A stretch of 64,000 nucleotides of DNA from Trypanosoma brucei. Its lineage: Eukaryota. The stretch spans positions 608,001 to 672,000 of the forward strand of contig CP000066.1 in NCBI GenBank assembly GCA_000002445.1, in the 5' to 3' direction. The notes under the pieces are model-generated. The model saw only the letters and a program-made list of their open reading frames with translations, was not told the DNA's origin and did no database searches. Made by a program: the position numbers and the translations under genes. Below, in pieces: positions 18,648 to 35,934 of this stretch (positions are counted from its first letter, which is position 1; each line of letters starts with the position of its first letter).

Positions 18648-21539
18648 ATGGATGCGAAACTTGTGTTCTGTGCGCACTCGCTCAAGTTACCAACGCTGAG
18701 CATTCCCCCAGCTCTGTCAGTAGATAATGAAACCATCAACTTCAGATGTCCGGAACCTCTTGCAGAAGCTGGTTTCCCCGTTCCAAACGCATCATTTACT
18801 GCTGACGTGATGATGGAGCAACCGCAATCCCGCTCCATTTACCAGCGGGTGTTCGCAACAGCTGCACGGGATTTCGAAGGGCGTAAAAATCTGGTAGTTT
18901 TCAGCTACGGCGTGCGTTCCACACCGAAACGGCAGCTTATGTTTGGTTCGGAATCGGGTAGCGGTTATGCTGCGAAGATCATTGGCGATGTTGTGGATGT
19001 TGGTGCCACCAAAGGCATCTTCGCCATCTCTGCGTATGGTGTTGGTTCCTCAGAGCATCTCACCGACTTCACTGATGAGAATAACGAAATGGGAGTAATT
19101 GTAGAATCGGTGAAGGAGGGCCCGCGTGTGCGTATGGTTGGGCGTGTTCGTGTAACGTCATCGGAGGATGTGCGTTCCGTTTTTAACACAGTTACGAAGA
19201 ACTATCAAAAACATTTCGAGTCAGTACTCCGCGAGAGGCAACCAACAGCTGAGCTTGAAGCCCTTCCGCCATATATGCCTGAGTCAATGATTCTTCAGCT
19301 CTACCGTTATGATGATGAGGAAGCATTCAGCGAGTATGTGGAAGCGAACTCCATGACGTTTGTTGCACTGGGAGACTCGGAACGGCCTGTTCTTTGTGGA
19401 ATTGAAGAAGAAACTCAGCAGGAGTATGAAAAGACACAGAAAGTCCTTGCGTCAGCAGTAGGAATTATCTCCAGTATTCGCTGTAATCGTCTGCGCATTC
19501 CATTCGGCAAGTCGAAATTAAGTCAGCTCCTTCGCCGTGCATACAATGCCGAGAAGGGCAACCCCAACAACGGCTACAATGAGCCAACATCAACCGTTTT
19601 TATTATTCATGCCTTTACAGACGCTGTTTGGGCAGAGGAGTCATACCACTGCCTTTTACTCTCGCGACGAGTTAGCAGCGTTGTTGGCACGAGCAGCATC
19701 GGTTCCATTACGCGCGACCTCAGTGTCGATAAGTGGCGTTTGGATCAAGATATTATGGAGTTGCGTGATGAGCTTCAAATTGCGCGCACAGTGTATGACT
19801 ACAGGCCCTGTATATATGACCAACCGAAGCCAGTTCAGAATATCAGAGAGGAGGAACAGAAACGCATTAGCGCCATTGTTTCAAAACGGGAGGAAGCCCG
19901 TGAAAGGCAGCTGAGTTTGGTCCGCGAGCAAGCCAAGCAGGATGCTGATAAAATCATTAAGGATCTCGAAGCTCGGACGGGGACGACGCTCTCGGCGCTG
20001 GAGGCCTCCCTCGAGGCGAAAATGAAGGAAAACTCGGCGCTTCATGCGGACAGGGAAAAACGAATTCATGAATATGAGCAAACCTTAGAAAAGATTCGCA
20101 AAAAGAAGCAGGAGGAGGAATCCGCGTGCGAGAAGCTACGTGAAGAGATGCTCCAGCTTGAACAGGAACTTAGTGTTCGGCAAAACGCAATTGAGAGCAA
20201 GCAGAAGAATTTGGAAATGATAAAGCTGGATAAGTCAAAGGGCCGTGACGCGGTTATGCGTGAGCGACAGTCCATACAAGCGATGCGCAAAACGGTGCTA
20301 GAGGAGAGGCGGCGTCAGCGCAAACAGTGGATTAACCAAATAAAAGAAATCAACGCTAAGGTTATTGATCAGGTCCGGATGCTGGCCGAGGAACGGAAGA
20401 AAAACGGTGAGCAGCCCACAGCAAATGAAGAGGCTGCTGAAAAGGCAATCATCGCGGATGTGCGAACTATCGAGGAATACTTGCCAAAACTCATTTCACT
20501 TGAGGACGTTCCCGTGAATTTGGAGGAGACGGAAGCCATTCGCCGACAATTTGCGGATGTGTTTGCGGAAGAGAAAAAGACATATCTTGCGCGGATCGAA
20601 GAGGAGAAGGCGCGGAGAGAAAAGCTGGAGCGTGGCCTCGAAGTATATCGTCAGCGCCTACTCGACACATATCAAGCTAAGAAAAAGGAGAAGGTGCATG
20701 ACGCCATAACAAAAGAGCAACACCTCAGCTCATTGGTGGATCAAGTCATTACGTACTTGCGCAACGGTGTCCGAATGAGCAAAATTTCAAGCAAAGGAAA
20801 TATTCGCCGGCGGTTCTACTTCCTCTCCGAAGATTACAAACGCATTCACTCCTGTGAGATTGATAACCAAGGCGCGCCAATCAGCCGGAAGAAACCACCC
20901 GTCACCATATGGCTGAAAGATATAAAGAAAGTGGTTATTGGCGTATACACATCTTCATTTACAAACTTTAGCAGTGAGGCTCAGTTGGCGAAGACGCGTC
21001 AGGAGGCCGTTTCTGACAGCGGAACTTACCGTCAAGACCCAACGCAAAACATCACCTCAGCCAACCTTGGTTTGCATAATTACAGATCCTTTGCACTTCT
21101 GCTTCGTGGAGGTAAATCTCTGGAAGTTGTTTGCGAAACGGACAGCGACTGCGAGGCTTGGCTTGTTGCGCTCAAGCGACTCCTTCAAATAAAATCTCCT
21201 ATTGAGCGAATTCTTGAGGAAAGGATGAACGGCAATACGACGAAAGAATCACCAAGTAACACACATGAAGGTGCTGTTGATATAAAATGGGGTGGTTCAC
21301 TTGATATACACAACATGCGCGGGTTTGTTTCCCTGTCGTCTGAAGAAGCCACGCTGTGTAGTGAAAACCACATCCCGCCCGCTTTGTTCCTTCGGATGAA
21401 GCAAGAAATGGCAGAAAAGGCGGAAAGGAATACCATCACGATTTATGATGTCCGTGTTTCTTCCGGTCTTGACTTATTCCGCTCAGGGAAGCTTTATGAT
21501 TTCTTATGCGAAAAGAGAGTCATACCGCTCCCGTACTGA
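18648..21539 (+). CDS. coiled-coil protein with N-terminal degenerate kinesin-motor-like region and C-terminal PH-like domain
   Basis: ATG at 18648. N-terminus: YQRVFATAARDFEGRKNLVVFSYG-VRSTPKRQLMFG. This resembles kinesin VYE...L.GYN.TIFAYGQTGSGKT, but the P-loop is not conserved. Residues about 380-700 are a long E/K/R-rich heptad-type coiled coil. The C-terminus (RRRFYFLSEDYKRIHSCEI...VTIWLKDIKKVVIG...CEAWLVALKRL) looks PH-like. Confidence 0.55.
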   Translation: MDAKLVFCAHSLKLPTLSIPPALSVDNETINFRCPEPLAEAGFPVPNASFTADVMMEQPQSRSIYQRVFATAARDFEGRKNLVVFSYGVRSTPKRQLMFGSESGSGYAAKIIGDVVDVGATKGIFAISAYGVGSSEHLTDFTDENNEMGVIVESVKEGPRVRMVGRVRVTSSEDVRSVFNTVTKNYQKHFESVLRERQPTAELEALPPYMPESMILQLYRYDDEEAFSEYVEANSMTFVALGDSERPVLCGIEEETQQEYEKTQKVLASAVGIISSIRCNRLRIPFGKSKLSQLLRRAYNAEKGNPNNGYNEPTSTVFIIHAFTDAVWAEESYHCLLLSRRVSSVVGTSSIGSITRDLSVDKWRLDQDIMELRDELQIARTVYDYRPCIYDQPKPVQNIREEEQKRISAIVSKREEARERQLSLVREQAKQDADKIIKDLEARTGTTLSALEASLEAKMKENSALHADREKRIHEYEQTLEKIRKKKQEEESACEKLREEMLQLEQELSVRQNAIESKQKNLEMIKLDKSKGRDAVMRERQSIQAMRKTVLEERRRQRKQWINQIKEINAKVIDQVRMLAEERKKNGEQPTANEEAAEKAIIADVRTIEEYLPKLISLEDVPVNLEETEAIRRQFADVFAEEKKTYLARIEEEKARREKLERGLEVYRQRLLDTYQAKKKEKVHDAITKEQHLSSLVDQVITYLRNGVRMSKISSKGNIRRRFYFLSEDYKRIHSCEIDNQGAPISRKKPPVTIWLKDIKKVVIGVYTSSFTNFSSEAQLAKTRQEAVSDSGTYRQDPTQNITSANLGLHNYRSFALLLRGGKSLEVVCETDSDCEAWLVALKRLLQIKSPIERILEERMNGNTTKESPSNTHEGAVDIKWGGSLDIHNMRGFVSLSSEEATLCSENHIPPALFLRMKQEMAEKAERNTITIYDVRVSSGLDLFRSGKLYDFLCEKRVIPLPY

Positions 21540-23197
21540 GCGGTGAAGGAAATATGAGAGTGTTATCAGGAGCCAACAGAATTTGTTTCTGAACTTTACC
21601 TTCCCTTCCTCTTTATTATTTCCCCTTATTTCAGTGATGATTCTGCTGCCGTCGCATTGTCCCACCCGCTACGTTCAATTATTTAGTAAATAGTTGGGAA
21701 GGGTGTCCACGTTTTTTTTTCAAGTTCTTTTTTTTTTTTTGGAACTTCCGGTCATATCCGAAATGGGCAGGGAGGTAGAAAGAGGAGGAAAGAGCAATAT
21801 AAACTTGGTTCCAGTCTGCGTTGCGTGAAATCCCCACGTTTCGAAACTGAAATAATATGTTCGAATGTTATGCTTAATAGTAACAATCACAATAATAATA
21901 ATAATACGTCTCACATCATCTTTCTTTCTTTCTTTATATTTAAATTTTTATTTGACAAAGAAAAAAGGATTATGGGTTTATAGTTAGGAAAAAATGACTA
22001 TATTTCCCCAATAACTGAGTTAAGGCGCATACCGCAGCAACATGCGAAACCCAAGTTTCAGTACCACTCAAATATACATTCATTAGTTAAAAATTTTTTT
22101 GCTTGCGGAATGAAGCTCGTTAGCTCACGCAAAAGGTGATGAAGTGGAACCGGCAATTTTTACAAAAAAAAAGCGTTATTGCTTTAATGACACAAGGGTG
22201 GGTATTCTTCGTAAAAACATAACGGCGTGATATGGGGTCAAATATGCGGACAGCCGCATATTTTAATTTTCGCACATGAAAAAAGCTCACCCGCAGCCAC
22301 ATCTCACTAGGGAAAGTTAGGAAGGGTAAAGTGCTCCCGCAAACGATGTGACGGAAGGATCAGAAATGATGCATTTGAAGATGGGGGCTGCCGGATTTTA
22401 TTATTTTGGGCCGGGGGAATACTCTTGCAAATGTGTGGAACGGGGGAAAAGGCAACACGAGGGGAGGGTTTTTTTTTAAAAAAAAGTGTCCGGGGAACAG
22501 GAATTTAATACGCTGTGCGGAGCATGGTGAAATTGGCAGAGGATGGTTTCATGGGAAGGACAGAGGTAGAATTCGGGCAAAACTGCTTGGAAGAAACTAA
22601 GCGAGGGTGCAATTTGTTAGAAATATCTAAATAAAGCGAACGTGGCGGATTGGGGGAAAGGGCGAGAGGAAACGCAAGAAACGCGAGCGCTTCTGTCAAA
22701 TACGGAAATACAGGAAATTGGAAGCAGGGCCAAGTTATCCGGTCAGATGCATAAAGACGCAACTCCCTCGTAATAATCCTCTGGAGAATACCATTAGGAA
22801 GTTTTATTTTAAAAAAAAAAAACTTTCGAAGTTCAACGCAAGATTCTTCGGAAGTACCGCAAAACTAAAACCGTGCCTACACTCGCTCCAGTCGACAAGA
22901 CGCTTTTAGCTAGTTTCTCAGTTGAGGTTGCACCTTTTGCTCCCAAGCATACTTGTTGTTTTGCTTTATCTGAAGAGATATAAAAAAAATACCACGCATC
23001 CGCAAAATGCGTCTGAACCAAACCGATCTTTTATGTATCGTATCAACTAGCCGATGAGGTGCGTGAGGAAACTTCCTTCATAGAATTGCTAAAACAACAG
23101 GTGTGTGGGGAGGAAGAAAGTGTTGTATAACAGTTTTGCATCGTTAAGACTCCGTGGGCACGTACCTGAACCAAACGTTAGGATTTAAGGGGTGTGC
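21540..23197. other. convergent strand-switch region (termination zone between plus and minus polycistronic units)
   Basis: The last plus-strand gene stops at 21539. The first minus-strand gene ends at 23198. No long ORFs between them. Contains the left inverted repeat. Confidence 0.5.
22153..22389. repeat. inverted repeat, left arm (IR-L), about 237 bp
   Basis: The reverse complement of 31157-31389 aligns along the whole length at roughly 90 percent identity. Example block: gcagccacatctcactagggaaagttaggaagggtaaagtgctcccgcaaacgatgtgacggaaggatcagaaatgatgcatttgaagatgg. Confidence 0.85.
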
Positions 23198-24385
23198 TTA
23201 AAAAACTAGAAAAAATAACTTAAGTGGTTCTGGGAGGCGGTTTACACCGCTGGAGGTGAATAATCTTCGTATGGAAGTCACGCATTCGCTCCCATTCCAT
23301 TCGCACCGCGGCTTCTGTTCCAGGCAAGTTACCTTGCTTTCGAAACCAGAGCATCCTCTTTTAGAGGACGTAGTCGGTTTTTTCCCCTCCAGTCCATTAT
23401 CAGTATTATTGGATTCGTCCTTTTCTTTTTCGCTTGAATTGTTTGGGACAGGTCGTGCCCCCCTCTTCAATTCGTTTACTTGGTTTTGAATCTTCACGAG
23501 GTACTCCTCGGCTTGGATCAGTTCTTCCATTCTGGTTGCAGCTTCTCGCAACTTTAGATACCACGAAATTGTTGGCGTGCTTTCATTGACGTGTCTTGGG
23601 AGATATATTACGCATCGGCCATGGCCAACCTCGGTGCTTCCGTCGCAGCCGTTGTGTAAGTCGGCGCCGCGCGCGCCCAGTAAGTTTCGTGAATCCGATG
23701 AAGAGTCCGGTATTTCCTGGAGTTCGCCAAGGAAGAAAGCGACCGCCTCTGAGAGCGCTTGAAGCGGCCGAGTTTTCTCTCTCCTCACGTTGCTGCACTT
23801 GGGATGGAGCAAATTCCAGTGATCAGGAGAATTTCTCTGGGGTACCCATGATCCTACATAAGTGGTGTTGCATCCATCACAGCAAACCGCGCTGCCGCCT
23901 TTGCCTTCGCTGGATGCTGCACAGATGCACAGTAAATCAAGCGCCAGCGCATCACCCGCTTTATTTCCGGGCTGGCCGCCAGCTCTTCCACATAACTCCG
24001 ACCTCCCACCCCGCGTGCGCCCGACCACCACCTGTTTATGACCGTTGCCGTACAGCGCTTCTGTTAAATTTTTTCTGATAGCTGATAAGGCCCGGCCGTT
24101 CCATAAATCACCGTTCTCTTCCTTATATGTTTTCGCTTTTAGTTTAAGTTCCTCAAGTTTTTTAACATTTTCTTCGGGCGCTTCGGCCTCTCCCTGAATT
24201 TCGTCTTCTGTTTCCTTAACCTTGCGCTCCAGATCCTCCGGTGTTTGTGTATCCAGCGCAAGATTTACAAAACCACACAGCGCTTCGAATTCCTTTCCAT
24301 TCACAATGTTGTTTTCATGCGCCTTTGAATTGACGCAGATATGTTGCAGCGTTACCACCGCAACAAACACGATGTAACTCCTCAT
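23198..24385 (-). CDS. VSG-family surface glycoprotein (type-B-like N-terminal domain, VSG-like Cys-rich C-terminal domain, GPI signal)
   Basis: Start moved to ATG 24385 (MRSYIVFVAVVTLQHICVNS signal peptide). The ORF-track start 24553 adds an unlikely 56-aa leader. Internal ALALDLLCICA motif is shared with gene 29733-30845. C-terminus CSGFESKVTCLEQKPRCEWNGSECVTS resembles VSG C-terminal CKWE-type motifs. Hydrophobic tail LPEPLKLFFLVF. Confidence 0.6.
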   Translation of the reverse strand: MRSYIVFVAVVTLQHICVNSKAHENNIVNGKEFEALCGFVNLALDTQTPEDLERKVKETEDEIQGEAEAPEENVKKLEELKLKAKTYKEENGDLWNGRALSAIRKNLTEALYGNGHKQVVVGRTRGGRSELCGRAGGQPGNKAGDALALDLLCICAASSEGKGGSAVCCDGCNTTYVGSWVPQRNSPDHWNLLHPKCSNVRREKTRPLQALSEAVAFFLGELQEIPDSSSDSRNLLGARGADLHNGCDGSTEVGHGRCVIYLPRHVNESTPTISWYLKLREAATRMEELIQAEEYLVKIQNQVNELKRGARPVPNNSSEKEKDESNNTDNGLEGKKPTTSSKRGCSGFESKVTCLEQKPRCEWNGSECVTSIRRLFTSSGVNRLPEPLKLFFLVF

Positions 24386-24831
24386 CCCCAACAATTTCGT
24401 ATATGCCTTTTTGTTCACAATGATGTCACCTGTCTCCCCAGAAAATTCGAAAGATGACGTACCAAACTTAGCGAAAAATACACACATACCGCGTAGGTGA
24501 GGATCATGACGAATAAAAAGCTCTCTCGGCTTCTCTCCCCAGCACACACACAAAAAATTGTTACATAACGTTTCAGCTCCCTTGAGAAGTCATAGCATCA
24601 CAAGAGAGCTCCACATGGAAGCCACCGCTGCTATCTCGATAGCAGCATCAAAAAGCCAGACACAAATTCCAAAAAAAGAAGGTGATACCACCTTAATTAT
24701 TCATCCAAAGAAAAACGAATTCATATGCGATTGTTAATAAACCCACATATTGTTAAAATGAAACACACGTACACATAAAAGCAAAATATAAAAAAGATAC
24801 TGCACGACAATGTTGGTAGCGTACCAGTAAA

Positions 24832-26202
24832 CTAAGACATACAAAAAAGGGATAGAATCATTAATGTAAAAATATCAGTTGTTATATCTATATAGTTGAA
24901 TCCATTATTATTTACTTCAGCATTGCCACCTTCACCATCATCCTGACCTCGGTTACTTCGCCATAGCTCAGCATCACCACCTAGCTTCACCTCAAGAAAT
25001 ATTTCCTCTGCCTCATGTTGGTATTCTTCCAATTCGTGAAGATGACTGTCAGACTCTTTGGCATACTTTGCCATTTCTTGTAGTTGCTCGGTGGCGTTAG
25101 TAAGATGGTTGTACCAAGGGATCCCACCATTTTCAAGTGTGTAGTTGTAGCTGACACATGTGAATCCAGCAGTATGACCCGTGCAGGTGCGATTCTCGTT
25201 GTTTAATGTTTTCACATAACCAAGAATACCCTTCACCTGATACTTATCCTGTTCCATTTCCACTAACGCATCGAACTGAGCTAGCGCACTCTTTAAGGTT
25301 TTCACATTAGATGCAATATTCTTGTACACGCAAGCTTTACTAATCACATCCCATGCCTCAGTATGGTTGTATTTTATATTTTCAGGCTTGCAGGTATTAT
25401 AGTTGCTCGGACAATACTCAGCCATCATAGTCCAACTACCATTTTTAGGTCTCCTTATTGCATCCTTACAAGGACAGTCATATCCACTGTATATGTTTTC
25501 ACTACTTGAGCCAGTATCCATTTGGTATACGCGTGTCTGTCGCTCTTCCTTCTTTTTTTCTATAGCCTCTCCCACACATAGGCAAAAGAAGTCATTAATT
25601 AGTGTCTTTCCAACTAGCTTGTCTCCGTAAGAACCACAGCTTGCGTCCGCATTGTAGACACTATTGAACAACAGTGATTTGTTTCCCCTCATGGCTTCCT
25701 CCAGAGTTTTATTCTCATTTCTTGCCACATCCACAGCGTCGCCATACACAGCCCTCAGCATATTTTCTTCAGCAGAGCGACTTGCATTCAAGGCTTTTGT
25801 CCTATTCACCTCTATCTGCTCCTTAAGCTTTTTCGCCTTCTCAAATAGTTTCTTCATCTCCTGATATGCTGTCGTGCTGTTAGATGAATTGTTCGAGCCC
25901 TTATTGCCACCAGCAGCTTCTGCCTCACTGACCATTTCCTCCAAATTCTTCAGAATCTCTCCTTCCTTCTCACGATTCTTAAAGGAGGGTTGCGGGGCCT
26001 CTGCTTGCGTGATTCGGTAAATCTTGCACAGTGTTTCGAACTCACCAACGTTGTGATGTTTTTCATCTGCATCGACGGTCTCCATAATCCTATCCCAGTC
26101 AAGCATATCAGTTCTCCATCGATATTCTGCCATATCACCCTGAGAGGAAGGAGATAAAACAACCACAAGCATCCCAACGGCAAACACTGTTTCGTGTCTC
26201 AT
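24832..26202 (-). CDS. VSG-related surface glycoprotein (B-type N-terminal domain-like)
   Basis: Start moved to ATG 26202 (MRHETVFAVGMLVVVLSPSSQG signal peptide). Long alpha-helical Ala/Glu/Lys-rich N-domain. Cys pattern FFCLCVGEAI, DCPCKD, YCPSNYNTCK. Many NxS/T sites. Short hydrophobic C-terminus (IFTLMILSLFCMS). Confidence 0.55.
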   Translation of the reverse strand: MRHETVFAVGMLVVVLSPSSQGDMAEYRWRTDMLDWDRIMETVDADEKHHNVGEFETLCKIYRITQAEAPQPSFKNREKEGEILKNLEEMVSEAEAAGGNKGSNNSSNSTTAYQEMKKLFEKAKKLKEQIEVNRTKALNASRSAEENMLRAVYGDAVDVARNENKTLEEAMRGNKSLLFNSVYNADASCGSYGDKLVGKTLINDFFCLCVGEAIEKKKEERQTRVYQMDTGSSSENIYSGYDCPCKDAIRRPKNGSWTMMAEYCPSNYNTCKPENIKYNHTEAWDVISKACVYKNIASNVKTLKSALAQFDALVEMEQDKYQVKGILGYVKTLNNENRTCTGHTAGFTCVSYNYTLENGGIPWYNHLTNATEQLQEMAKYAKESDSHLHELEEYQHEAEEIFLEVKLGGDAELWRSNRGQDDGEGGNAEVNNNGFNYIDITTDIFTLMILSLFCMS

Positions 26203-27418
26203 CGTGATTTTGCCTCTACAATCATCAGTCAAAAGGAGGGAAAAAAATCTTATTATCACGTTCATTACTGTTATTGACAAACACAACAAACATGGAGATA
26301 CATCAATGTATCGAAGTTAACAAGTGCCCGACACAAGTCAACCGAAACAGTATCCAACAAAACAGGAAGCACATCCCAATACATACAGTTAGATGAGTGT
26401 ATTCTTTCAAGCTGGACATCAACGTTAGACTTCCTCACAACTGCGGTATTCTCCTTTTCGTTACACCATTTCTCCTAATTTCCTCCCCAAAAAATCTGCT
26501 TTATTTGATACCATGCCAGTATATCCAATTTTCCAACTGAGTTCCTCTTGCACTCCCTTGATTTCCTCAATAATAAGCTGATCCATTCTCTTAATGAAGA
26601 CTTGCACCTTTATGCCATGTTTTTTTCCACATCCTTCATTGGATCTGTTAGTTTAAGTTGCCATTTTATGGTCTTATTTGCTAATAGATTACGTGCTTAA
26701 TTCGCACGTGTTACCTTTATCCAATGCACACAACTCTGCTGCTGAACTCCACTCAGCATATCCTCCTCCACTCATACGCATACTCACAAAACTTTTTGTT
26801 TACCTATTCTTGACCATGCACAGTTTCCTGCCTTCCATTTTCTTAAGCCATACACTAGAAAAGATAAAAGTTGTATTTTCAAAACACCATCTCGGATACT
26901 TATGCTCACTATTGAGGCCCTTGATTATATGGTGACATGATGGAATATTATGGTATTTTCCAACACAAAAAAGTCCCAGAATAATTAGTGACCTTCCCTG
27001 TCAGCACCCTCATTTAGATCGTTCACCTCATTAACCAGCCACCATCCTTATAGATACGCTGGTAGAAAAAAACGGAAGTTATGCACGTTATCGCCCATCC
27101 CCTCAACGAATTCTATCCACCCTTACCCCACACAGGTTTTTTGCATAAGAAACGACAAACAAGAAACAAAACTACTCTTGTGAGCACAAAACCAAATATT
27201 TCTTCCTTACTTCACATGCAGAAAGAATTAACACACCCCACTACCCTACAACACAAATGGTGGAGGGACAGCCATAGTCACTACCACTCACAATTAAGAT
27301 AACCCAGACAGGGAAACTCCAGATAAAGAAATGCCCAGTTACGAGAAAGATCCTAGCGCGCACACGTAAAGATATTTCATTTATTATGGAACAGGGAGAA
27401 TATTAATGAAAGTACTTT

Positions 27419-28393
27419 TCAGATGGTAAAATTAGTACTCTTCATATTATCAATGTTATTCGTGCTGAACTGCAGCGAAGTGAAATTCCTATGGATATCG
27501 TTGAAGTAGCTCTGCAGTAAAGTGATATTGGCCATCATATCCAGGAGTTCAGGAGGTGCTTTGCCAGAAGTAAAAGGTTCGATAAGAGGGTCAAATATCT
27601 CCTCCACGTAAATTTGGAGCTGAAAAAAAGCGGGGCCGTTCTCACGCCAGTTTATTAAGCCAGTTGAATTCTTCACCGCACCACCCTTATATAAGTTGTC
27701 ACGCGGTAAGTTCAAGCATTTGCTCACAGATCCAGATCCAGTTAAAACATCAATTTGAAGGCAACCTCCCCTGTATTTTTGGAGAGTGATCTCGTTCACA
27801 CCGGTTAATAAAGGACATGTCTGATCAACACATACGACTGGGAACCCCCTGACACCTTTCAGCGCTCCTTTCTTGCACTCGGGTCCTTCATCATTGCTCA
27901 CGGCTTTAACGTCATCCCACACAGTTCTTGCGATCTCAGCAATAGCTGTGTAATATTTATTTGATGTTATGAGGGCACCAGGTATTGCATTCCTCACTGC
28001 CCTCACGCTTTCATTAACCTCAGCAAATAATCCACCTGCCTTAGCAACAAGATCTCCCATTGCATTTCCATAAGATATAAGGTTTTCCAATTTATCATTT
28101 TCCTCTACCATTACACTGCTAATAACACTCAAATATATAACACTTTCGCCTGTTTTCCCTTCCATGTCATCCAGCATACGAGACGCATTTGCGTATACCT
28201 CCTCATTCAAAAAAAGCTTCCTCTCGCCATCTGTATATAGTTTGTTTAAGGCATCTGAAAGACATTTGAGGTAACATACGGATTGGTTTAAGTTTGTGCC
28301 CTTGTCATCATCTATTGATGTGCAATAACTTTCTTCTGCCACTCCAAAGGTCACAAAAAAAAAAACAACCAATCCTACAATCTTAATTTTCAT
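27419..28393 (-). CDS. ESAG/VSG-related secreted glycoprotein lacking C-terminal anchor signal
   Basis: Start moved to ATG 28393 (MKIKIVGLVVFFFVTFGVA signal peptide). An alternative ATG at 28579 is also possible. Cys-containing N-terminal region (SYCTSIDDD, VCYLKCL). At least 8 NxS/T sequons. Ends in a hydrophilic NMKSTNFTI with no GPI/TM tail. Confidence 0.45.
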   Translation of the reverse strand: MKIKIVGLVVFFFVTFGVAEESYCTSIDDDKGTNLNQSVCYLKCLSDALNKLYTDGERKLFLNEEVYANASRMLDDMEGKTGESVIYLSVISSVMVEENDKLENLISYGNAMGDLVAKAGGLFAEVNESVRAVRNAIPGALITSNKYYTAIAEIARTVWDDVKAVSNDEGPECKKGALKGVRGFPVVCVDQTCPLLTGVNEITLQKYRGGCLQIDVLTGSGSVSKCLNLPRDNLYKGGAVKNSTGLINWRENGPAFFQLQIYVEEIFDPLIEPFTSGKAPPELLDMMANITLLQSYFNDIHRNFTSLQFSTNNIDNMKSTNFTI

Positions 28394-29732
28394 TACTAAA
28401 CAATTACATTTGACAAGAGGAATGAAAAAAACACATACACATCGCCACACAAAACCAATGAGTGTCACAAATGTATAATCCCAATACCCACAGTGTTTCA
28501 TACACATAACATTGAACCACATAATAAATATTGCTACAAGAGACGTTAAACCCAACAGAATATGATGCTCCTTCTTCATTGTCAATCCTCCTTCATCCGT
28601 CACATCGTCATCATCCTCACTTCCATTGCATTTCCTCCCACTCTCCTTGAAATATTTACACACAATCAGGTTTTGAGATAGCAACTCTTTCAGTTTATTT
28701 TCATGCCCAGTAAAGGAAACAAAGATCAGCTCTACATCACCGTACCGTTTGGTGATACTCCCATATCATTTTGTGACTAAATTGTAGCTGTTGATAAGCT
28801 AGGGCACTATATCACTGAACATTAGGGTGACAACACCATCCCTATGGTAGTTAACGAAACCTCCGGTAGTTCCCACTATGAAAGTTCCAACTCCTGCAAC
28901 CGCAGCACCTTACGTACCCATGATCCAGCAATTGATGGTTGCTATCGGTTGTAAATTCAATTGGTTGATTAGCTGTGTAATTATTTGTGCAACCAATATA
29001 CCATCATTTGGCATATCTTCAGTGAAAGAGAAATTACACATGTTAGGAGATTCCGCTACTCTGTGCTTATGTTAATTACTTTAACATTCATTTCCTGAAG
29101 AGGCGGCTTTCTCCTTCACAAGACAACAACCATTTGCTTTAGCATTTGTTTGTCTAAAAACCATTACCAGATCCTTCAACACTTGTCCAATTGACAATGA
29201 TGCATTCACAACATGATTAGACACTCTTATTTCGTTTAAATAACTTGCGTCTATTACCTGTCCAGGTTCATCTGTATTCTTCATTATATTCCTCAACCTC
29301 TACGTTATCGCTTTCCATGCCCTTCCCTTTACATCATAGTGATATCACCACATCAGAAACCCATTCAACATTTACATAGCCTCCGATTGTCATCTTCAAA
29401 ACACTAACACTCACAGTCCCCAAGGCACAACTGAAGCTAAATACCGTTTGTGTCCCTTGACGGACACCTCAACTCAGTGCCAGGGTCTAGCACCCTGCTC
29501 AGGTAAGAGAAAAAAAGCGACAGCATCCTACTCCATTAGGATTAAGTTCAGACGGAAAATCCAAGGCTTCAATTCACAATGGAGCACACACCGTAAACGT
29601 TACAGGACAAGCATTATTCTTGGAAATAAAATAGGCACAGTTGCTGTGCCGTCAACTATACCAAAAAGAAATCCACTATTATTACCATTAGTGTTAGTAT
29701 TGGCGCAGTGGAGCCACATATGATGTTGTGTG

Positions 29733-30845
29733 TCACAGCAGAAAGAGCAAAAACACCACCAACGGTGAAATAGCCTGAGCGACATTTTTCGGCCGAAGTG
29801 GCTGGTGTGAGGGTTGGAGTGAGTGATTGGTTCTTGTTTCACCAAGAGGAACCAAGTCAGGGTCGGTGGTGCTTTGTGTAGCTGCACTTGTGTTGGGTGC
29901 CATTGGTGTATTGCCATCAGTTGCCGTTGAGGGAGATTGCTTGGGACGTTGCTCGGGAGATGGATCCTCCTCTGGTTGTACCTTTATTTCCGGGGGTGAC
30001 TGACGGGGTGGTGAGCCTCTTGTTGGAATAGGCGGTTCCCTCTGCTCCTGCGGTGGCATTTTGTTGACTTTTTGTGCATTTTCCTTTTTAGGGGTTTTCA
30101 ACCTTTTGACAAGGTCTTCTAGTTGTGTCAACCACTCAATTTTGACTTGATTTGCTCCTCCGCCTTCCATTTTATAGAAAACACATGGGGCGTTATTTGC
30201 ACTGCCAGACCCTCCACAAGATTTGGTGATCGGCTCCCGCCCGTGTCCGAAGCGCTTAGTTTCCCTCTCTGTTGTTTTCTCGGTCATTTCATTCAGTTTT
30301 TTCCTAAGATTTTGGACGGTTGTGGTTAATGATTCAAAACCGATGCTTTCTATATTAATTTGCTCGGTGCACTTTTGCTTGATTTTCCCCCAACTTTCTT
30401 CGGCTCTGTCCTTGTTTCCCCAACTTTCGGCAGGATCATACCACGCATTGGCTTCGTAGCACAGATTTTTTTGGTGGTCACCGTTTCCGCTGGGTCTGCA
30501 AAGACACAGAAGGTCCAGCGCTAACGCTTTGCCTCCAAATCCGCCTCCGAATATGCTGGTGTAGCCACAGTCAGCTTCTCGTTTTTCTTTTCCAGTCCAA
30601 TTAAGGGAGCCATCGCTGTCACTACCGTACAAGACTTTCATCGCGGAACTGTCGAAGTCGTTTGCGACCTCGGCTGTGAGTCTCTCTTTCTCCACCCACT
30701 CGTGTATTCTCAGTGTCAAATTTAAGAAACTGCAGAGCACGTCAAACTCCCTTTGGTTCAACGTATTTTCTATCTCTGCGGCCGGCACGCTCAACCCTGC
30801 CGCCTTCCAAACCACGCACAGCATAGTCACTAATATTTTCCACAT
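29733..30845 (-). CDS. VSG-family surface glycoprotein with Pro/Ser/Thr-rich stalk and GPI signal
   Basis: Start moved to ATG 30845 (MWKILVTMLCVVWKAAGLS signal peptide). ALALDLLCLC motif, paralogous to gene 23198-24385. C-terminal 100 aa Pro/Gln/Ser/Thr-rich. Hydrophobic tail AISPLVVFLLFLL. Confidence 0.55.
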   Translation of the reverse strand: MWKILVTMLCVVWKAAGLSVPAAEIENTLNQREFDVLCSFLNLTLRIHEWVEKERLTAEVANDFDSSAMKVLYGSDSDGSLNWTGKEKREADCGYTSIFGGGFGGKALALDLLCLCRPSGNGDHQKNLCYEANAWYDPAESWGNKDRAEESWGKIKQKCTEQINIESIGFESLTTTVQNLRKKLNEMTEKTTERETKRFGHGREPITKSCGGSGSANNAPCVFYKMEGGGANQVKIEWLTQLEDLVKRLKTPKKENAQKVNKMPPQEQREPPIPTRGSPPRQSPPEIKVQPEEDPSPEQRPKQSPSTATDGNTPMAPNTSAATQSTTDPDLVPLGETRTNHSLQPSHQPLRPKNVAQAISPLVVFLLFLL

Positions 30846-31156
30846 CGCCTTCCTAAGCATCAATAAAAAAAATGAAACAGATAGTAGAGAAATCTCCAAT
30901 GAGAGGGGCAGGGACACTTTTAAAGGGTGAAAGTTTAACCCTATTAGGTATTTCATGAAACATCAGCAGAGGTCAACCAGAGAAGATATGAAAGCTCATA
31001 TCTCCATAGACTACATTTATTTTTTTAAAAGTCTCTTTACCATCCCAAGACTAGTTTGGCACTTAAGTTTACTTCTGGTTTTGATACTTGCTGCCATTGT
31101 CTTAACCTATCTGCCTTAAAGTTTTGATAACATCAAGGGTTTCCGCTCTTTTTTGG

Positions 31157-31389
31157 GGGCCTCCATCTTCAAATGCATCATTTCTGATCCTTCCGTCACA
31201 TTGTTTGCGGGAGCACTTTACCCTTCCTAACTTTCCCTAGTGAGATGTGGCTGCAGGAGAGCTTTTTCATATGTGGAAATAAAACCACGCGGCTATCCGC
31301 ATATTTGACCCCATATCACGCCGTTATGTTTTTACGAAGAATACCCACCCTTGTGCCATTAAAGCAATAACGTTTTTTTTGTAAAAATG
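31157..31389. repeat. inverted repeat, right arm (IR-R), about 233 bp
   Basis: Reverse complement of IR-L (22153-22389). Arms are separated by 8767 bp. Confidence 0.85.
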
Positions 31390-32906
31390 CGATTAATTAT
31401 TAACATGACTATTGAAAACGCTATTGTGATGTTGAACATGGTTTACCGTTTCAATTCAATTATTTCACCACAACAATAGCCAAATAATACACGATCTACC
31501 AAACAAACGCAACAGAAAGGCATTCACCAACTTCAGAAAAAAAATTTATTCAAACGGTTTTCAAACAGTACATATCCTACCATTCCCACCCAAAACACCT
31601 CAGAAACTGTTGATTTTCAAGGTAAATCACAAATCGAAACATAAGCAGCAAACTACCCCACCCATACAAATACACGAGAATAAATGTGGTATAACAATAC
31701 CAGATAAGCTCGGTGACCGTATCCTACACCAAAATAGGTATTAATAACAATGTGAGGCTTGGGCACAAAATATGAAGGGCCATTGATTCCGCCTTTTTTC
31801 TTAGGGCAGAGGAGTTCTGTTCCCTTTCATTGGTGATGAGGCTATTATTATCACCCCAAAACCAGTTTTTTTTATCACTGCCTCTCCATGTGGATATTTT
31901 CCTTGTCTGGCGACCCGGCACTCACTTTTTTCTGCTTTTCTTAGGTGATGTTAATTGATTGCCTTACAGCCTATACCATTTATCTATTCACGAACGTTAC
32001 TGTTGGGAGGCGGTTATACGGAGACAATGTCAACGTGCCAAATTCGAGTACGCAGAGATCCACCACATGCCAAAGGTAAAACTATGCGCCATGCTACAAC
32101 AATGCATCGAGCTTCAAAACACTTCTCCACTACAAAAATCTCCCCCCAGTTCTGACGCTATGTTTTATTGAGCACAATTTCGTAGATGAGGGCGAGCCCT
32201 GGACGTTTATCGCCCACCATCCCACTACCTTATGTAACGTGACGGACAGCAACCGAACAAAAGGGTCGTATCCTTTCGTTTTCTACACATATCACTTTGA
32301 ATCCGAGAAGGAGTTCAACAGATGACAAACATAATGCAGTACGTACTAAAACAAAAAACACTTTTTACTTGAATCCCTATATCAACTCACAATCGACAGC
32401 ACATATTCGACATTAACTAACTCCATCATTAAAATACACTCCACTCTAACACAGAAACAACCCAATGTGATGCTTAGTTACCATAACAAAGGAATACGCC
32501 TCACGTTTCACAAACATGGGTACGAAGTCATTCCACCCTAGTACACACATTTGGTCACCTCACATTAATAACCTGTTTCTTAAACGCGTAAGGCGTTGTT
32601 TAAATTTCACGTTGTCATATAATATAATATTCCATACATAATTCTGCCTGCAGAGTCCACACCATATCGACAGCTGCCTTCATTTTGTTTCAGTGCAAAC
32701 GCCTAAACCCCTTCTAAAGGAGTCTGGCGTAGTATAAAGATATACAATGCTACAAATACCAGAGCAGCTAGATTGAAACACAGGTGGTGAGGAACTATCG
32801 GCATCTGGGGATGAATGACTTCATTCAAATGGGCATGCACGAATGCAGCACCTTTGAAGGGACAAAAACTCGTTTTAGAAAGAAAACTGACAAATAATTT
32901 GTACTC

Positions 32907-33563
32907 TCAGAGAAATAGGAGCAACACTGGAAAAAAAACCTGGTAGATAGGTGGTTGCAGCGGCTGAGATTTGCTTTTCTGCTGTTCCGGGGGGCGAACA
33001 GAGGAAGTTCCGTTACGTTCGCTGCCAAAAGTGGAGGAGACAGTACCTTTATTTTCGGATTTGAGGTGGCCGTCATCCTTAGAGGGTGAACCATTTTCCT
33101 CCTTTTTAGGGGTCGCAGAAACCGAACTACCATTTCTCACCGGCTCTTCAGAAAGCACAGGGCCGTACTCGGATGATGGAGGTGCCTCACCTTTGTTAGA
33201 GGCCTCGTCGCGACTTGAGTCTCCACCCGCTTCCACAACTGGTGAAGCGACTTCGGGTGTTGAGAGCCCAAGGAACTCACTAACCTTTGCGGTTACACAT
33301 CTGTGCGGTGAAAAGCAGGTCAATCCCCCGCCGCAAACGGTACAGTTCCCCTCTGCAGGTGCGCCCGAAGGAACCCTGTGTGCCAGGGTGCAGTTTTTCT
33401 GTGCATACGTCATGAGACGATTCTCCTCGTTTCTAGTTATACGGCTTTCAATTCCCAATACTTCCGTGCACTTACCCACATATCCAATTCTTCCCTCCCA
33501 TACATTCTCACACATGGCCACACGTTGAACGAAACCGAACAGTATTATTGGTAGGCACAGCAT
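32907..33563 (-). CDS. array copy 1: small Cys-rich / Ser-rich putatively GPI-anchored surface protein (218 aa)
   Basis: Signal peptide MLCLPIILFGFVQRVAMC. Seven Cys in the first 85 aa (NCTVCGGGLTCFSPHRC). Ser/Pro/Glu-rich low-complexity middle. Hydrophobic C-terminus VFFPVLLLFL. Confidence 0.55.
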   Translation of the reverse strand: MLCLPIILFGFVQRVAMCENVWEGRIGYVGKCTEVLGIESRITRNEENRLMTYAQKNCTLAHRVPSGAPAEGNCTVCGGGLTCFSPHRCVTAKVSEFLGLSTPEVASPVVEAGGDSSRDEASNKGEAPPSSEYGPVLSEEPVRNGSSVSATPKKEENGSPSKDDGHLKSENKGTVSSTFGSERNGTSSVRPPEQQKSKSQPLQPPIYQVFFPVLLLFL

Positions 33564-34420
33564 TTCAGAATTCTACACTGCCTGAGTTGCTCCAACACCA
33601 GCGCAAAGAAAAATAATAAACACCTCATACATAACATATATCATACAGTTATGTGTGTTTATACTTTGTTTCAAAATATATCGTATTGAATACAAATAGC
33701 AGACACATGACACGAAAAAATCCCATTAAGCGTTAACATGACATAAAATACCCTATTCAGATGCAACCGAACAAAAGGGTCGTATCCTTTCATTTTCTAC
33801 GCATATCACTTTTGATCCAAGATACGGTTAAACAGGTGACAAACATAATGCAGTACGTACTAAAACAAAAAACACTTTTTACTTGAATCCCTATATCAAC
33901 TCACAATCGACAACACATATTCGACATTAACTAACTCCATCATTAAAATACACTCCACTCTAACACAGAAACAACCCAATGTGATGCTTAGTTACCATAA
34001 CAAAGGAATACGCCTCACGTTTCACAAACATGGGTACGAAGTCATTCCACCCTAGTACACACATTTGGTCACCTCACATTAATAACCTGTTTCTTAAACG
34101 CGTAAGGCGTTGTTTAAATTTCACGTTGTCATATAATATAATATTCCATACATAATTCTGCCTGCAGAGTCCACACCATATCGACAGCTGCCTTCATCTT
34201 ACTTCCAAACAAACGCCTAAAACTCTTCTAAAGGAGTCTGGCGTAGCATAAAGATATACAATGACGCAAACACCAAAGAAGCTAGATTGAAACACAGGTG
34301 GGGAGGAACTATCGGCATCTGGGGATGAATGACTTCATTCAAATGGGCATGCACGAATGCAGCACCTTTGAAGGGACAAAAACTCGTTTTAGAAAGAAAA
34401 CTGACAAATAATTTGTACTC

Positions 34421-35077
34421 TCAGAGAAATAGGAGCAACACTGAGGAAAACACCTGGTAGATAGGTGGTTGCAGCGGCTGAGATTTGCTTGTCTGCTGTT
34501 CCGGGGGGCGAACAGAGGAAGTTCCGTTACGTTCGCTGCCAAAAGTGGAGGAGACAGTACCTTTATTTTCGGATTTGAGGTGGCCGTCATCCTTAGAGGG
34601 TGAACCATTTTCCTCCTTTTTAGGGGTCGCAGAAACCGAACTACCATTTCTCACCGGCTCTTCAGAAAGCACAGGGCCGTACTCGGATGATGGAGGTGCC
34701 TCACCTTTGTTAGAGGCATCGTCGCGACTTGAGTCTCCACCCGCTTCCACAACTGGTGAAGCGACTTCGGGTGTTGAGAGCCCAAGGAACTCACTAACCT
34801 TTGCGGTTACACATCTGTGCGGTGAAAAGCAGGTCAATCCCCCGCCGCAAACGGTACAGTTCCCCTCTGCAGGTGCGCCCGAAGGAACCCTGTGTGCCAG
34901 GGTGCAGTTTTTCTGTGCATACGTCATGAGACGATTCTCCTCGTTTCTAGTTATACGGCTTTCAATTCCCAATACTTCCGTGCACTTACCCACATATCCA
35001 ATTCTTCCCTCCCATACATTCTCACACATGGCCACACGTTGAACGAAACCGAACAGTATTATTGGTAGGCACAGCAT
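34421..35077 (-). CDS. array copy 2 (218 aa)
   Basis: Same architecture. Differs from copy 1 at a few residues (RDDASN, QQTSKS, VFSSVLLLFL). Confidence 0.55.
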   Translation of the reverse strand: MLCLPIILFGFVQRVAMCENVWEGRIGYVGKCTEVLGIESRITRNEENRLMTYAQKNCTLAHRVPSGAPAEGNCTVCGGGLTCFSPHRCVTAKVSEFLGLSTPEVASPVVEAGGDSSRDDASNKGEAPPSSEYGPVLSEEPVRNGSSVSATPKKEENGSPSKDDGHLKSENKGTVSSTFGSERNGTSSVRPPEQQTSKSQPLQPPIYQVFSSVLLLFL

Positions 35078-35934
35078 TTCAGAATTCTACACTGCCTGAG
35101 TTGCTCCAACACCAGCGCAAAGAAAAATAATAAACACCTCATACATAACATATATCATACAGTTATGTGTGTTTATACTTTGTTTCAAAATATATCGTAT
35201 TGAATACAAATAGCAGACACATGACACGAAAAAATCCCATTAAGCGTTAACATGACATAAAATACCCTATTCAGATGCAACCGAACAAAAGGGTCGTATC
35301 CTTTCATTTTCTACGCATATCACTTTTGATCCAAGATACGGTTAAACAGGTGACAAACATAATGCAGTACGTACTAAAACAAAAAACACTTTTTACTTGA
35401 ATCCCTATATCAACTCACAATCGACAACACATATTCGACATTAACTAACTCCATCATTAAAATACACTCCACTCTAACACAGAAACAACCCAATGTGATG
35501 CTTAGTTACCATAACAAAGGAATACGCCTCACGTTTCACAAACATGGGTACGAAGTCATTCCACCCTAGTACACACATTTGGTCACCTCACATTAATAAC
35601 CTGTTTCTTAAACGCGTAAGGCGTTGTTTAAATTTCACGTTGTCATATAATATAATATTCCATACATAATTCTGCCTGCAGAGTCCACACCATATCGACA
35701 GCTGCCTTCATCTTACTTCCAAACAAACGCCTAAAACTCTTCTAAAGGAGTCTGGCGTAGCATAAAGATATACAATGACGCAAACACCAAAGAAGCTAGA
35801 TTGAAACACAGGTGGGGAGGAACTATCGGCATCTGGGGATGAATGACTTCATTCAAATGGGCATGCACGAATGCAGCACCTTTGAAGGGACAAAAACTCG
35901 TTTTAGAAAGAAAACTGACAAATAATTTGTACTC

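What the first reader, a model, noticed from the sequence alone, without database searches (positions are those of the whole stretch)
22153..31389. 8.8 kb VSG/ESAG-family gene island bracketed by about 235 bp inverted repeats at a convergent strand-switch region
The two arms are 22153-22389 and the reverse complement of 31157-31389. They align over their full length at roughly 90 percent identity, and I checked several blocks by hand. Everything between them is surface-antigen-family coding sequence: four genes, all on the minus strand. Everything outside is housekeeping (left) or the tandem array (right). IR-L sits inside the convergent termination zone of the plus-strand unit. Homologous recombination between the arms would invert the island and attach the four genes to the plus-strand unit instead. 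So the structure behaves like an invertible cassette or a composite-transposon-like insertion. It could equally be a footprint of segmental duplication/transposition, a hotspot for ectopic recombination of antigen genes, or a boundary element. I know of no named element with these terminal sequences.
Basis: seen in the sequence. Interest (0 to 1): 0.85.

Follow-up and report, generated by a model that had tools for sequence, protein, structure and literature searches.

The report
Diverged inverted repeat flanking trypanosome antigen-gene island
A real 233-base inverted repeat brackets a known, normally silent cluster of surface-antigen-like genes where two transcription units converge on Trypanosoma brucei chromosome 3. 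It looks like an old rearrangement scar with occasional sequence exchange between its arms, not a flipping switch or a transposon.

Summary
Arms 22156-22388 (+) and 31159-31388 (reverse complement) align over 233 bp at 93.1% identity (E 2e-96), and they are the only such pair in the window. Between them lie three VSG_B-domain (VSG-related) genes and one ESAG1 gene, all on the minus strand.

The window is T. brucei TREU927 chromosome 3, genes Tb927.3.2490 (TbPH1) to Tb927.3.2590. This is the convergent strand-switch region cSSR 3.3. Its terminal genes are published as silenced by histone H3.V and base J. VSG-related genes at strand-switch regions are already a described class.

The invertible-cassette and transposon readings find no support:
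- There is no target-site duplication, no recombinase and no coding capacity or RNA structure in the arms.
- T. b. gambiense DAL972 has both arms and a colinear island. Two T. equiperdum assemblies, which cover only arm L and the left junction, are colinear there too.
- The T. brucei-specific, silenced block extends about 9 kb beyond arm R, so the arms do not delimit it.

The arms predate the brucei/gambiense split. They are no better conserved than the flanking DNA, but they show signs of short inter-arm gene conversion.

I could not test copy number elsewhere in the T. brucei genome. Best reading: a decaying rearrangement relic. Interest is low to moderate.

The parts
22156..22388 (+). Arm L of the inverted repeat. 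It lies 617 bp downstream of the TbPH1 stop codon and 810 bp beyond the stop of the last minus-strand gene.
   Evidence: 233 bp, 93.1%, E 2e-96. Present at the same place in DAL972, T. b. equiperdum IVM-t1 and T. equiperdum OVI.
31159..31388 (-). Arm R of the inverted repeat. On the minus strand it reads like arm L on the plus strand. It lies about 200 bp upstream of the long ORF of VSG-related gene 4, and about 290 bp upstream of that gene's likely splice-acceptor polypyrimidine tract.
   Evidence: The DAL972 ortholog is 98.3% identical.
22240..22263 (.). Perfect hairpin with a 10-bp stem (AAATATGCGG-ACAG-CCGCATATTT) inside arm L. It is imperfect in arm R and in the OVI arm L. It adjoins the 32-bp patch that holds all the consistent L-versus-R differences.
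   Evidence: (self-hit 22240-22263).
23198..24553 (-). VSG-related gene 1 (VSG_B domain). By numbering this is probably Tb927.3.2510. The DAL972 ortholog is called at 429 aa, so the true start is probably the ATG at about 24487.
   Evidence: (E 7e-45).
24832..26289 (-). VSG-related gene 2 (VSG_B domain), probably Tb927.3.2520. Its N-terminal half and upstream spacer form a mosaic of deeply divergent haplotypes among strains.
   Evidence: (E 2e-24).
27419..28684 (-). ESAG1-family gene (Tb927.3.2530). It is annotated as 324 aa in TREU927, not called as a gene at the orthologous DAL972 locus, and listed as an ESAG pseudogene in Lister 427.
   Evidence: (E 2e-114).
29733..30956 (-). VSG-related gene 4 (Tb927.3.2540; XP_843847.1). 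The likely true start is MWKILV, downstream of a polypyrimidine tract at about 30870-30930.
30966..31158 (.). Hypervariable patch that starts at the inner edge of arm R. It is about 80% identical between TREU927 and DAL972, with 99-100% identity on both sides.
18648..21539 (+). TbPH1 (Tb927.3.2490), a kinesin-like PH-domain protein. It is the last gene of the plus-strand unit and the last gene syntenic with other trypanosomes.
32249..37973 (-). Tandem array of 1514-bp units (3.8 units) encoding 218-aa putative surface proteins (Tb927.3.2550-2570), plus a diverged fourth copy (37449-38210, 253-aa ORF). The array is T. brucei-specific and belongs to the same silent terminal cluster.

Best explanation
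The two arms are a structural relic. About 233 bp of non-coding DNA was copied in inverted orientation on either side of a T. brucei-specific cluster of VSG-related and ESAG1 genes. This happened in an ancestor of the Trypanozoon group, at a convergent strand-switch region (cSSR 3.3, chromosome 3). That site is a synteny breakpoint and a recurrent landing place for lineage-specific genes.

The order of events is open. Either the copy arose during insertion or repair of the island (for example a templated patch), or the island landed in the centre of a small pre-existing palindrome.

Since then the arms have drifted at roughly the neutral rate. They exchange short gene-conversion tracts now and then, but no crossover has been fixed that would invert the island.

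The island's expression state is set by something else: H3.V- and base-J-dependent termination inside the minus-strand transcription unit, upstream of Tb927.3.2590. That mechanism is published.

Shown: the repeat, its age relative to the subspecies split, one orientation in every assembly that covers a junction, no excess conservation, and gene identities. Inferred: how the copy arose, the absence of function, and the link to published chromatin and small-RNA data through gene numbering.
For: - The repeat is real, sharply bounded and unique in the window.
- The arms are non-coding. RNA folding is not significant (z -1.5 and -1.9). There is no Rfam or tRNA match.
- DAL972 carries both arms and a colinear island. 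IVM-t1 and OVI carry arm L with a colinear left junction.
- Seven L-versus-R differences are shared by all strains. In the TREU927/DAL972 comparison, 16 sites show the L-versus-R pattern. The duplication therefore predates strain divergence.
- TREU927 versus DAL972 identity is 96.1% for arm L and 98.3% for arm R, against 98.4% for the adjacent spacers. There is no sign of purifying selection.
- Two sites 12 bp apart carry the same polymorphism in both arms, which indicates short inter-arm conversion.
- Synteny ends right after TbPH1 in T. vivax, T. cruzi (an RHS gene follows) and T. theileri (a GH32 gene follows).
- Tb427.03.2500, 2530, 2540, 2580 and 2590 are silent and are derepressed in the H3.V knockout; 2540 rises 11.9-fold (PMC4721609).
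- Gene numbering is anchored by TbPH1 = Tb927.3.2490, the Tb927.3.2550 array and XP_843847 as the VR protein.
Against: - Copy number of the arm in the rest of the T. brucei genome is unknown. Only about 120 kb of Trypanozoon DNA could be searched.
- The sharp 233-bp edges would also fit a discrete repeat unit.
- A hypervariable patch starts exactly at the inner edge of arm R. The differences between the two R arms are clustered. Both hint at a third arm-bearing donor or at recombination activity focused on the arm.
- Evidence for inter-arm conversion means the arms are not inert.
- For IVM-t1 and OVI only the left junction could be examined. No population or long-read data were available, so rare inversions cannot be excluded.
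Confidence: 0.55

Rival explanations
1. The arms are two members of a low- or medium-copy repeat or homology block found elsewhere in the T. brucei genome, for example upstream of other VSG-related genes. Their inverted arrangement here would then be a by-product. Such blocks could serve as homology for segmental gene conversion of VR genes and their upstream regions.
For: - The unit has sharp edges of identical length in both copies.
- A ~195-bp patch of only 80% identity between TREU927 and DAL972 begins within 1-2 nt of the inner edge of arm R. This is what a conversion tract anchored in arm homology would produce.
- All four differences between the two R arms lie within 14 bp, and only two of them match arm L.
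- VR gene 2 of the island is itself a mosaic of divergent haplotypes.
Against: - There is no third copy in the 64-kb window, nor in about 56 kb from three other ESAG1 or VR+ESAG1 loci of DAL972 and T. equiperdum.
- Those loci contain no inverted repeats.
- The arm matches no known RNA family.
- The DNA sampled is too small to exclude fewer than about 800 random copies.
Confidence: 0.2
2. The repeat has a function in RNA or chromatin. A minus-strand read-through transcript would contain both arms, which could pair over 233 nt and feed the nuclear Dicer DCL2. Alternatively, the arms help to position transcription termination or H3.V and base J at this convergent region.
For: - All seven long inverted repeats described in T. 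brucei yield siRNAs, and all surveyed convergent units do so as well (PMC3447711).
- The chromosome 3 convergent unit CTU6 (626.6-634.3 kb) is very probably this locus. It gives 227 AGO1-bound small-RNA reads, falling to about 1% in dcl2-/- cells.
- The cluster is under H3.V and base J control.
Against: - The arms are no better conserved than neighbouring spacer.
- They are much shorter and more diverged (233 bp, 93%) than the siRNA-producing repeats (422-10,011 bp, 99-100%).
- CTU6 is among the weakest small-RNA sources in the table.
- Convergent transcription alone explains small RNAs at such sites.
- The derepressed cluster starts upstream of Tb427.03.2590, about 8 kb before arm R, so the arm is not the termination boundary.
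- No read mapping could be done here.
Confidence: 0.12
3. The structure is an invertible cassette. Crossover between the arms flips the four genes between the minus-strand and plus-strand transcription units as a regulatory or diversity-generating switch.
For: The geometry allows it. T. brucei relies on homologous recombination. The shared polymorphisms show that the arms do interact.
Against: - DAL972 is colinear with TREU927 across the whole island. IVM-t1 and OVI are colinear across the left junction.
- The Lister 427 annotation places genes 2500-2590 in one transcription unit.
- Arm-specific differences persist across strains. The arms show no L/R chimeras beyond short tracts.
- There is no recombinase gene.
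- At 233 bp with 7% mismatch, the arms are a poor substrate for crossover (inference from general knowledge of mismatch-sensitive recombination in T. brucei).
Confidence: 0.03
4. The island is a composite-transposon-like mobile unit whose terminal inverted repeats are the arms.
For: Inverted terminal sequences bracket a gene cargo.
Against: - There is no target-site duplication at the outer edges.
- There is no transposase or integrase domain in or near the island.
- The arms have no coding capacity.
- The arm is not found at other sampled ESAG1 or VR loci.
- No DNA transposons of this type are known in T. brucei (own knowledge).
Confidence: 0.02

Closest known systems
Chromosome-internal VSG-related (VR) / GRESAG gene clusters at strand-switch regions of T. 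brucei (Berriman 2005; Marcello and Barry 2007, as cited in PMC2771046; Jackson 2013, PMC3605285)
   Same: The island has VSG_B-domain genes without 70-bp repeats, an ESAG1-family gene, a chromosome-internal position at a strand-switch region, T. brucei-specific content and neighbouring tandem arrays of putative surface proteins. Tb927.3.2540 is itself listed as a VR gene.
   Different: In the papers read here, nothing in those descriptions mentions a flanking inverted repeat.
Gene clusters silenced by termination inside a transcription unit, controlled by base J and histone H3.V (Reynolds 2014, PMC4150806; Reynolds 2016, PMC4721609; cSSR 3.3 in Fig 3 of the latter)
   Same: This appears to be the very locus. 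Tb427.03.2500, 2530, 2540, 2580 and 2590 are silent in wild type and derepressed on loss of H3.V or base J.
   Different: The published mechanism is chromatin-based and does not involve the repeat. The silent domain begins well upstream of arm R.
Long inverted repeats of T. brucei that yield siRNAs (Tschudi 2012, PMC3447711, Table 3: IR1-IR7)
   Same: These are inverted repeats with kilobase-scale spacers in the megabase chromosomes. By coordinates, three of them (IR3, IR5, IR7) coincide with convergent regions listed by Reynolds 2016. Small RNAs also arise from the spacers.
   Different: Those repeats are 422-10,011 bp long and 99-100% identical. This one is 233 bp at 93% and was not reported in that survey. 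siRNA production from the arms is unknown.
Bacterial invertible DNA switches and composite transposons
   Same: Inverted repeats bracket a gene-bearing segment.
   Different: There is no recombinase or transposase, no target-site duplication, only one orientation observed, and the organism is a eukaryote with polycistronic transcription.

Membership tests
Chromosome-internal VR/GRESAG island at a strand-switch region | Genes with a b-type VSG N-terminal domain and/or ESAG-family genes | tested here: met
   Pfam VSG_B in three genes (E 7e-45, 2e-24, 3e-27) and ESAG1 in one (E 2e-114). Sources name gene 4 as VSG-related.
Chromosome-internal VR/GRESAG island at a strand-switch region | Located at a strand-switch region in the chromosome core, not in a subtelomeric array | tested here: met
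   Plus-strand housekeeping genes (Arv1, TbPH1) meet minus-strand genes at about 21.5-23.2 kb. GC skew changes sign there.
Chromosome-internal VR/GRESAG island at a strand-switch region | No 70-bp repeats upstream of the genes | tested here: met
   Tandem Repeats Finder reports no array in the window at score >= 100. No direct repeats were found in 21000-32500.
Chromosome-internal VR/GRESAG island at a strand-switch region | Absent from the syntenic position in other trypanosome species | tested here: met
   T. vivax, T. cruzi and T. theileri carry unrelated genes after the TbPH1 ortholog. T. congolense could not be retrieved.
H3.V / base J silent cluster (termination inside a transcription unit) | Genes silent in wild type and derepressed on loss of H3.V or base J, lying downstream of an H3.V/J peak | not testable with these tools
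   Taken from PMC4721609 S1/S4 tables. The link to this window rests on gene numbering.
siRNA-producing long inverted repeats (Tschudi 2012) | Arms of at least about 400 bp at 99-100% identity | tested here: not met
   233 bp at 93.1%, against 422-10,011 bp at 99-100%.
siRNA-producing long inverted repeats (Tschudi 2012) | AGO1-bound small RNAs map to the arms | not testable with these tools
   Only a locus-level count is available for CTU6 (227 reads, DCL2-dependent).
Composite transposon / TIR element | Target-site duplication flanking the terminal inverted repeats | tested here: not met
   Outer flanks are ...GGAACCGGCA (left) and GCGATTAATT... (right), with no direct repeat.
Composite transposon / TIR element | Transposase encoded in the element or in the arms | tested here: not met
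   Only VSG_B and ESAG1 domains are present. The arms hold only short, non-conserved ORFs.
Composite transposon / TIR element | Multiple copies or other insertion sites in the genome | tested here: inconclusive
   No copy was found in the window or in about 56 kb of other Trypanozoon loci. No whole-genome search was possible.
Invertible DNA switch | Both orientations occur among cells or strains | tested here: not met
   DAL972 is colinear with TREU927 across the whole island. IVM-t1 and OVI are colinear across the left junction. No population data were available.
Invertible DNA switch | Dedicated recombinase nearby | tested here: not met
   No recombinase domain was found among the ten flanking or internal proteins scanned.

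The most novel reading that the evidence does not exclude
The arm is a conserved homology block that focuses recombination on this antigen-like gene cluster, playing a role analogous to the 70-bp repeats upstream of VSGs. It would anchor segmental gene conversion of VR genes and their upstream regions from other arm-bearing copies or alleles, and rarely allow inversion of the island between two transcription units. The hints are the hypervariable patch that begins at the inner edge of arm R, polymorphisms shared between the arms, and the mosaic haplotypes of VR gene 2.
Probability: 0.1. Interest if true: 0.6.

Novelty: new member of a known kind. Interest (0 to 1): 0.25.

Why it matters
If the repeat is only a scar, it adds one small documented example of how lineage-specific surface-gene islands were assembled at strand-switch regions in T. 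brucei, and little more.

It would matter more if whole-genome searches showed the arm to be a recombination anchor shared by VSG-related loci. It would also matter if long reads revealed inversion. Either result would point to a way of diversifying or re-wiring chromosome-internal antigen-like genes outside the classical VSG system.

The strain comparison also exposes unusually deep, mosaic allelic divergence in one VR gene of the island. That may be the more interesting lead.

Tried and rejected
- **Decayed plus-strand VR pseudogene next to arm L.** An 'EQEFNTLCGAW' motif at about 22495 suggested this. It would have made the repeat the upstream region of an inverted gene duplicate. tblastn and Pfam found nothing, so I rejected it.
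- **Extension of the repeat beyond 233 bp.** Sensitive BLASTN of both flanks found none.
- **Relation of the outer flank of arm R to the array unit.** The Smith-Waterman score was 50, against a shuffle mean of 36 and maximum of 57. Not significant.
- **Structured RNA, tRNA or Rfam family in the arms.** Negative.
- **Retrieving TREU927 itself, T. congolense, the chromosome 9 VR paralog, or arm-encoded ORFs from read assemblies to look for inverted junctions.** None was on record.
- **Arm copies at other ESAG1 or VR loci.** None found. Those loci also have no inverted repeats.
- **Exact arm cores in metagenome and prokaryote collections.** No hits, as expected.
- **T. vivax as an island-free allele.** Synteny simply ends after TbPH1, so it gives no information on the arms.
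Full report
**1. The observation.** The repeat finder reports two abutting inverted pairs, 22159-22283 with 31263-31387 (90%) and 22280-22388 with 31159-31267 (96%). BLASTN merges them into one 233-bp alignment, 22156-22388 against 31388-31159, at 93.1% identity and E 2e-96. A MAFFT alignment with 50-bp flanks shows that similarity stops abruptly at both ends. Self-comparison of the whole window finds no third copy. The only other repeat is a 1514-bp tandem array at 32249-37973. The arms are 8770 nt apart. The identity is slightly better than stated.

**2. What lies between and around the arms.** Four long ORFs, all on the minus strand, fill the interval.
- 23198-24553, 24832-26289 and 29733-30956 carry the Pfam VSG_B domain.
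- 27419-28684 is ESAG1 (E 2e-114).
- To the left, on the plus strand, are Arv1 (17140-17898) and a 963-aa PH-domain protein (18648-21539).
- To the right, on the minus strand, is the array encoding 218-aa proteins with signal-peptide-like and hydrophobic C-terminal ends. A diverged fourth copy and a 305-aa protein follow.

GC skew changes sign at about 22-24 kb. No tRNA or Rfam family is present in the window.

**3. Identity of the locus.** Gene 4 is XP_843847.1, 'VSG-related, putative', of T. brucei brucei TREU927, on a 1,653,225-bp contig (chromosome 3). The array proteins are XP_843848-50. Three literature anchors fix the numbering:
- TbPH1, a 110-kDa kinesin-like protein with a C-terminal PH domain, is Tb927.3.2490.
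- Tb927.3.2550 is a four-copy array of a hypothetical protein with a 1536-nt alignment length. It is present in conserved gene order only in T. brucei and T. b. gambiense.
- Tb927.3.2540 is a VSG-related gene.

The island is therefore Tb927.3.2510-2540. It lies between Tb927.3.2490 and the Tb927.3.2550 array.

**4. [quoted passage not shown] T. brucei-specific surface-protein arrays also sit next to strand-switch regions (PMC3605285).

Reynolds et al. 2016 (PMC4721609) use 'cSSR 3.3' on chromosome 3 (617-670 kb) as a showcase for termination inside a transcription unit. Their tables list Tb427.03.2500, 2530 (ESAG pseudogene), 2540 (VSG-related; RPKM 0.34 rising to 4.1, or 11.9-fold, in the H3.V knockout), 2580 and 2590. 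All are in one transcription unit, all lie next to H3.V and base J, and all are derepressed.

Tschudi et al. 2012 (PMC3447711) list a convergent unit on chromosome 3 at 626.6-634.3 kb. It has 227 AGO1-bound small-RNA reads, and these depend on DCL2. This is the only convergent unit in that coordinate range, so it is very probably the same site. That link is an inference, because I cannot place the window on chromosome coordinates.

The same paper surveyed the genome for inverted repeats and reported seven, of 422-10,011 bp at 99-100% identity. None is on chromosome 3. The present repeat is below what that survey reported.

**5. Comparison with other genomes.** The T. b. gambiense DAL972 locus (L001, L010) is colinear over 21 kb and carries both arms. 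T. b. equiperdum IVM-t1 (L009) and T. equiperdum OVI (L011) are colinear with TREU927 across arm L and into the island. Their retrieved loci stop inside the island, so arm R and the right junction could not be checked in those two. No assembly shows an inverted junction.

Beyond Trypanozoon, synteny holds up to the TbPH1 ortholog and then ends:
- T. vivax continues with five unrelated plus-strand genes.
- T. cruzi has an Arv1-PH-RHS unit repeated in tandem.
- T. theileri has a GH32 gene.
- T. congolense could not be retrieved.

The site is therefore a synteny breakpoint that holds different lineage-specific genes in each lineage. The T. brucei-specific block is larger than the interval between the arms.

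**6. Evolution of the arms.** TREU927 versus DAL972 identity by segment is as follows.

| Segment | Identity |
|---|---|
| TbPH1 | 99.7% |
| Spacer outside arm L | 98.4% |
| Arm L | 96.1% |
| Spacer inside arm L | 98.4% |
| Arm R | 98.3% |
| Spacer outside arm R | 96.4% |

The arms are not better conserved than neutral-looking neighbours.

In a six-arm alignment (four L, two R), only seven sites separate all L arms from both R arms. All seven lie in a 32-bp central patch next to a perfect 10-bp-stem hairpin in arm L (22240-22263). Elsewhere the arms differ only by strain-specific polymorphisms, about 3%. A cluster of that kind suggests one complex mutational event, for example correction at a quasi-palindrome (inference).

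Two sites 12 bp apart carry the same polymorphism in both arms: C,A in TREU927 L and R, and T,G in DAL972 L and R. By a rough estimate this coincidence has a probability of a few in a thousand if the arms evolve independently. It therefore points to short gene-conversion tracts between the arms after the strains separated. So the arms do interact, but without a fixed crossover.

**7. What the arms are not.**
- They have no conserved ORF; the small ORFs differ between arms because of an indel.
- RNA folding is not significantly better than shuffles (z -1.46 and -1.90).
- There is no Rfam hit even at E <= 1.
- There is no target-site duplication at the outer edges and no transposase or recombinase.
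- A suspected VSG-like motif just inside arm L was not confirmed.
- Three other ESAG1 loci lack the arm and contain no inverted repeats. One of them is a VR+ESAG1 island on another DAL972 chromosome record (FN554968.1).

**8. What stays open.** No tool here searches T. brucei genomic DNA as a whole. Only about 120 kb of Trypanozoon sequence was available, which excludes only very high copy numbers. Three observations keep the 'repeat family / recombination anchor' idea alive:
- the sharp edges of the unit;
- the clustering of all four differences between the two R arms within 14 bp, only half of which match arm L;
- a ~195-bp stretch (30966-31158) that begins within 1-2 nt of the inner edge of arm R and is only about 80% identical between TREU927 and DAL972, while both sides are 99-100% identical.

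A conversion donor for that patch would need arm-like homology on one side and gene-4 homology on the other. That means either a third copy or an old allele.

**9. Verdict.** The repeat is real and, as far as the papers I could read show, unreported. It sits in a well-described kind of locus that has itself been studied functionally.

The evidence favours a decaying structural relic with occasional inter-arm conversion (confidence about 0.55). The alternatives are a wider repeat family (about 0.2), an RNA or chromatin function (about 0.12), an inversion switch (about 0.03) and a transposon-like unit (about 0.02).

Interest is low to moderate. A specialist would see it as a curiosity comparable to, but weaker than, the long inverted repeats already noted in this genome.

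Noticed in passing
window 24900-27300 (VSG-related gene 2 and its upstream spacer); L009, L010, L011: This segment is a mosaic of deeply divergent haplotypes among four Trypanozoon assemblies, while neighbouring DNA is 98-100% identical. At 25800-26399, TREU927 equals T. b. equiperdum IVM-t1 (100%) but DAL972 is only 70-77% identical. At 25500-25799, T. equiperdum OVI is about 84% identical to all others. At 26700-27299, DAL972 equals IVM-t1 (99.7%) but TREU927 is 89%. This suggests segmental conversion or recombination between old alleles in the N-terminal domain of a chromosome-internal VR gene.
   Followed up: partly
window 30966-31158: A ~195-bp patch between arm R and VR gene 4 is only about 80% identical between TREU927 and DAL972. 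It starts within 1-2 nt of the arm's inner edge, and the flanks on both sides are 99-100% identical.
   Followed up: partly
window 22240-22263 and alignment columns 105-136: Arm L has a perfect hairpin with a 10-bp stem. Arm R and the OVI arm L have an imperfect version. All consistent L-versus-R differences cluster in the adjoining 32 bp, as a single template-switch-type event would produce.
   Followed up: partly
L002 (T. vivax), L003/L004 (T. cruzi), L005 (T. theileri): Synteny with T. brucei ends immediately after the TbPH1 ortholog in every species examined. Different lineage-specific genes follow. In T. cruzi an Arv1-PH-RHS unit is tandemly duplicated.
   Followed up: partly
window 32249-39949: The proteins to the right of the island are fast-evolving putative surface proteins, not housekeeping genes: the 218-aa array, a 253-aa ORF that is a diverged fourth copy with a different N-terminus, and a 305-aa protein. 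The 305-aa protein differs at 28 positions between TREU927 and DAL972. The array is 93% identical between the two.
   Followed up: partly
window 29733-30956: The annotated 407-aa and 375-aa versions of Tb927.3.2540 probably over-extend the N-terminus. A strong polypyrimidine tract and an AG lie just upstream of 'ATGTGGAAAATA' (MWKILV...), and a 370-aa version exists in a VSG catalogue entry.
   Followed up: no
Tschudi 2012 Table 3 versus Reynolds 2016 S2 Table: By coordinates, three of the seven published long inverted repeats coincide with entries in the convergent strand-switch table: IR3 on chromosome 7 at about 1.125-1.135 Mb, IR5 on chromosome 8 at about 1.048-1.060 Mb, and IR7 on chromosome 11 at about 4.219-4.231 Mb. 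Inverted repeats around convergence zones may therefore be recurrent in this genome.
   Followed up: no
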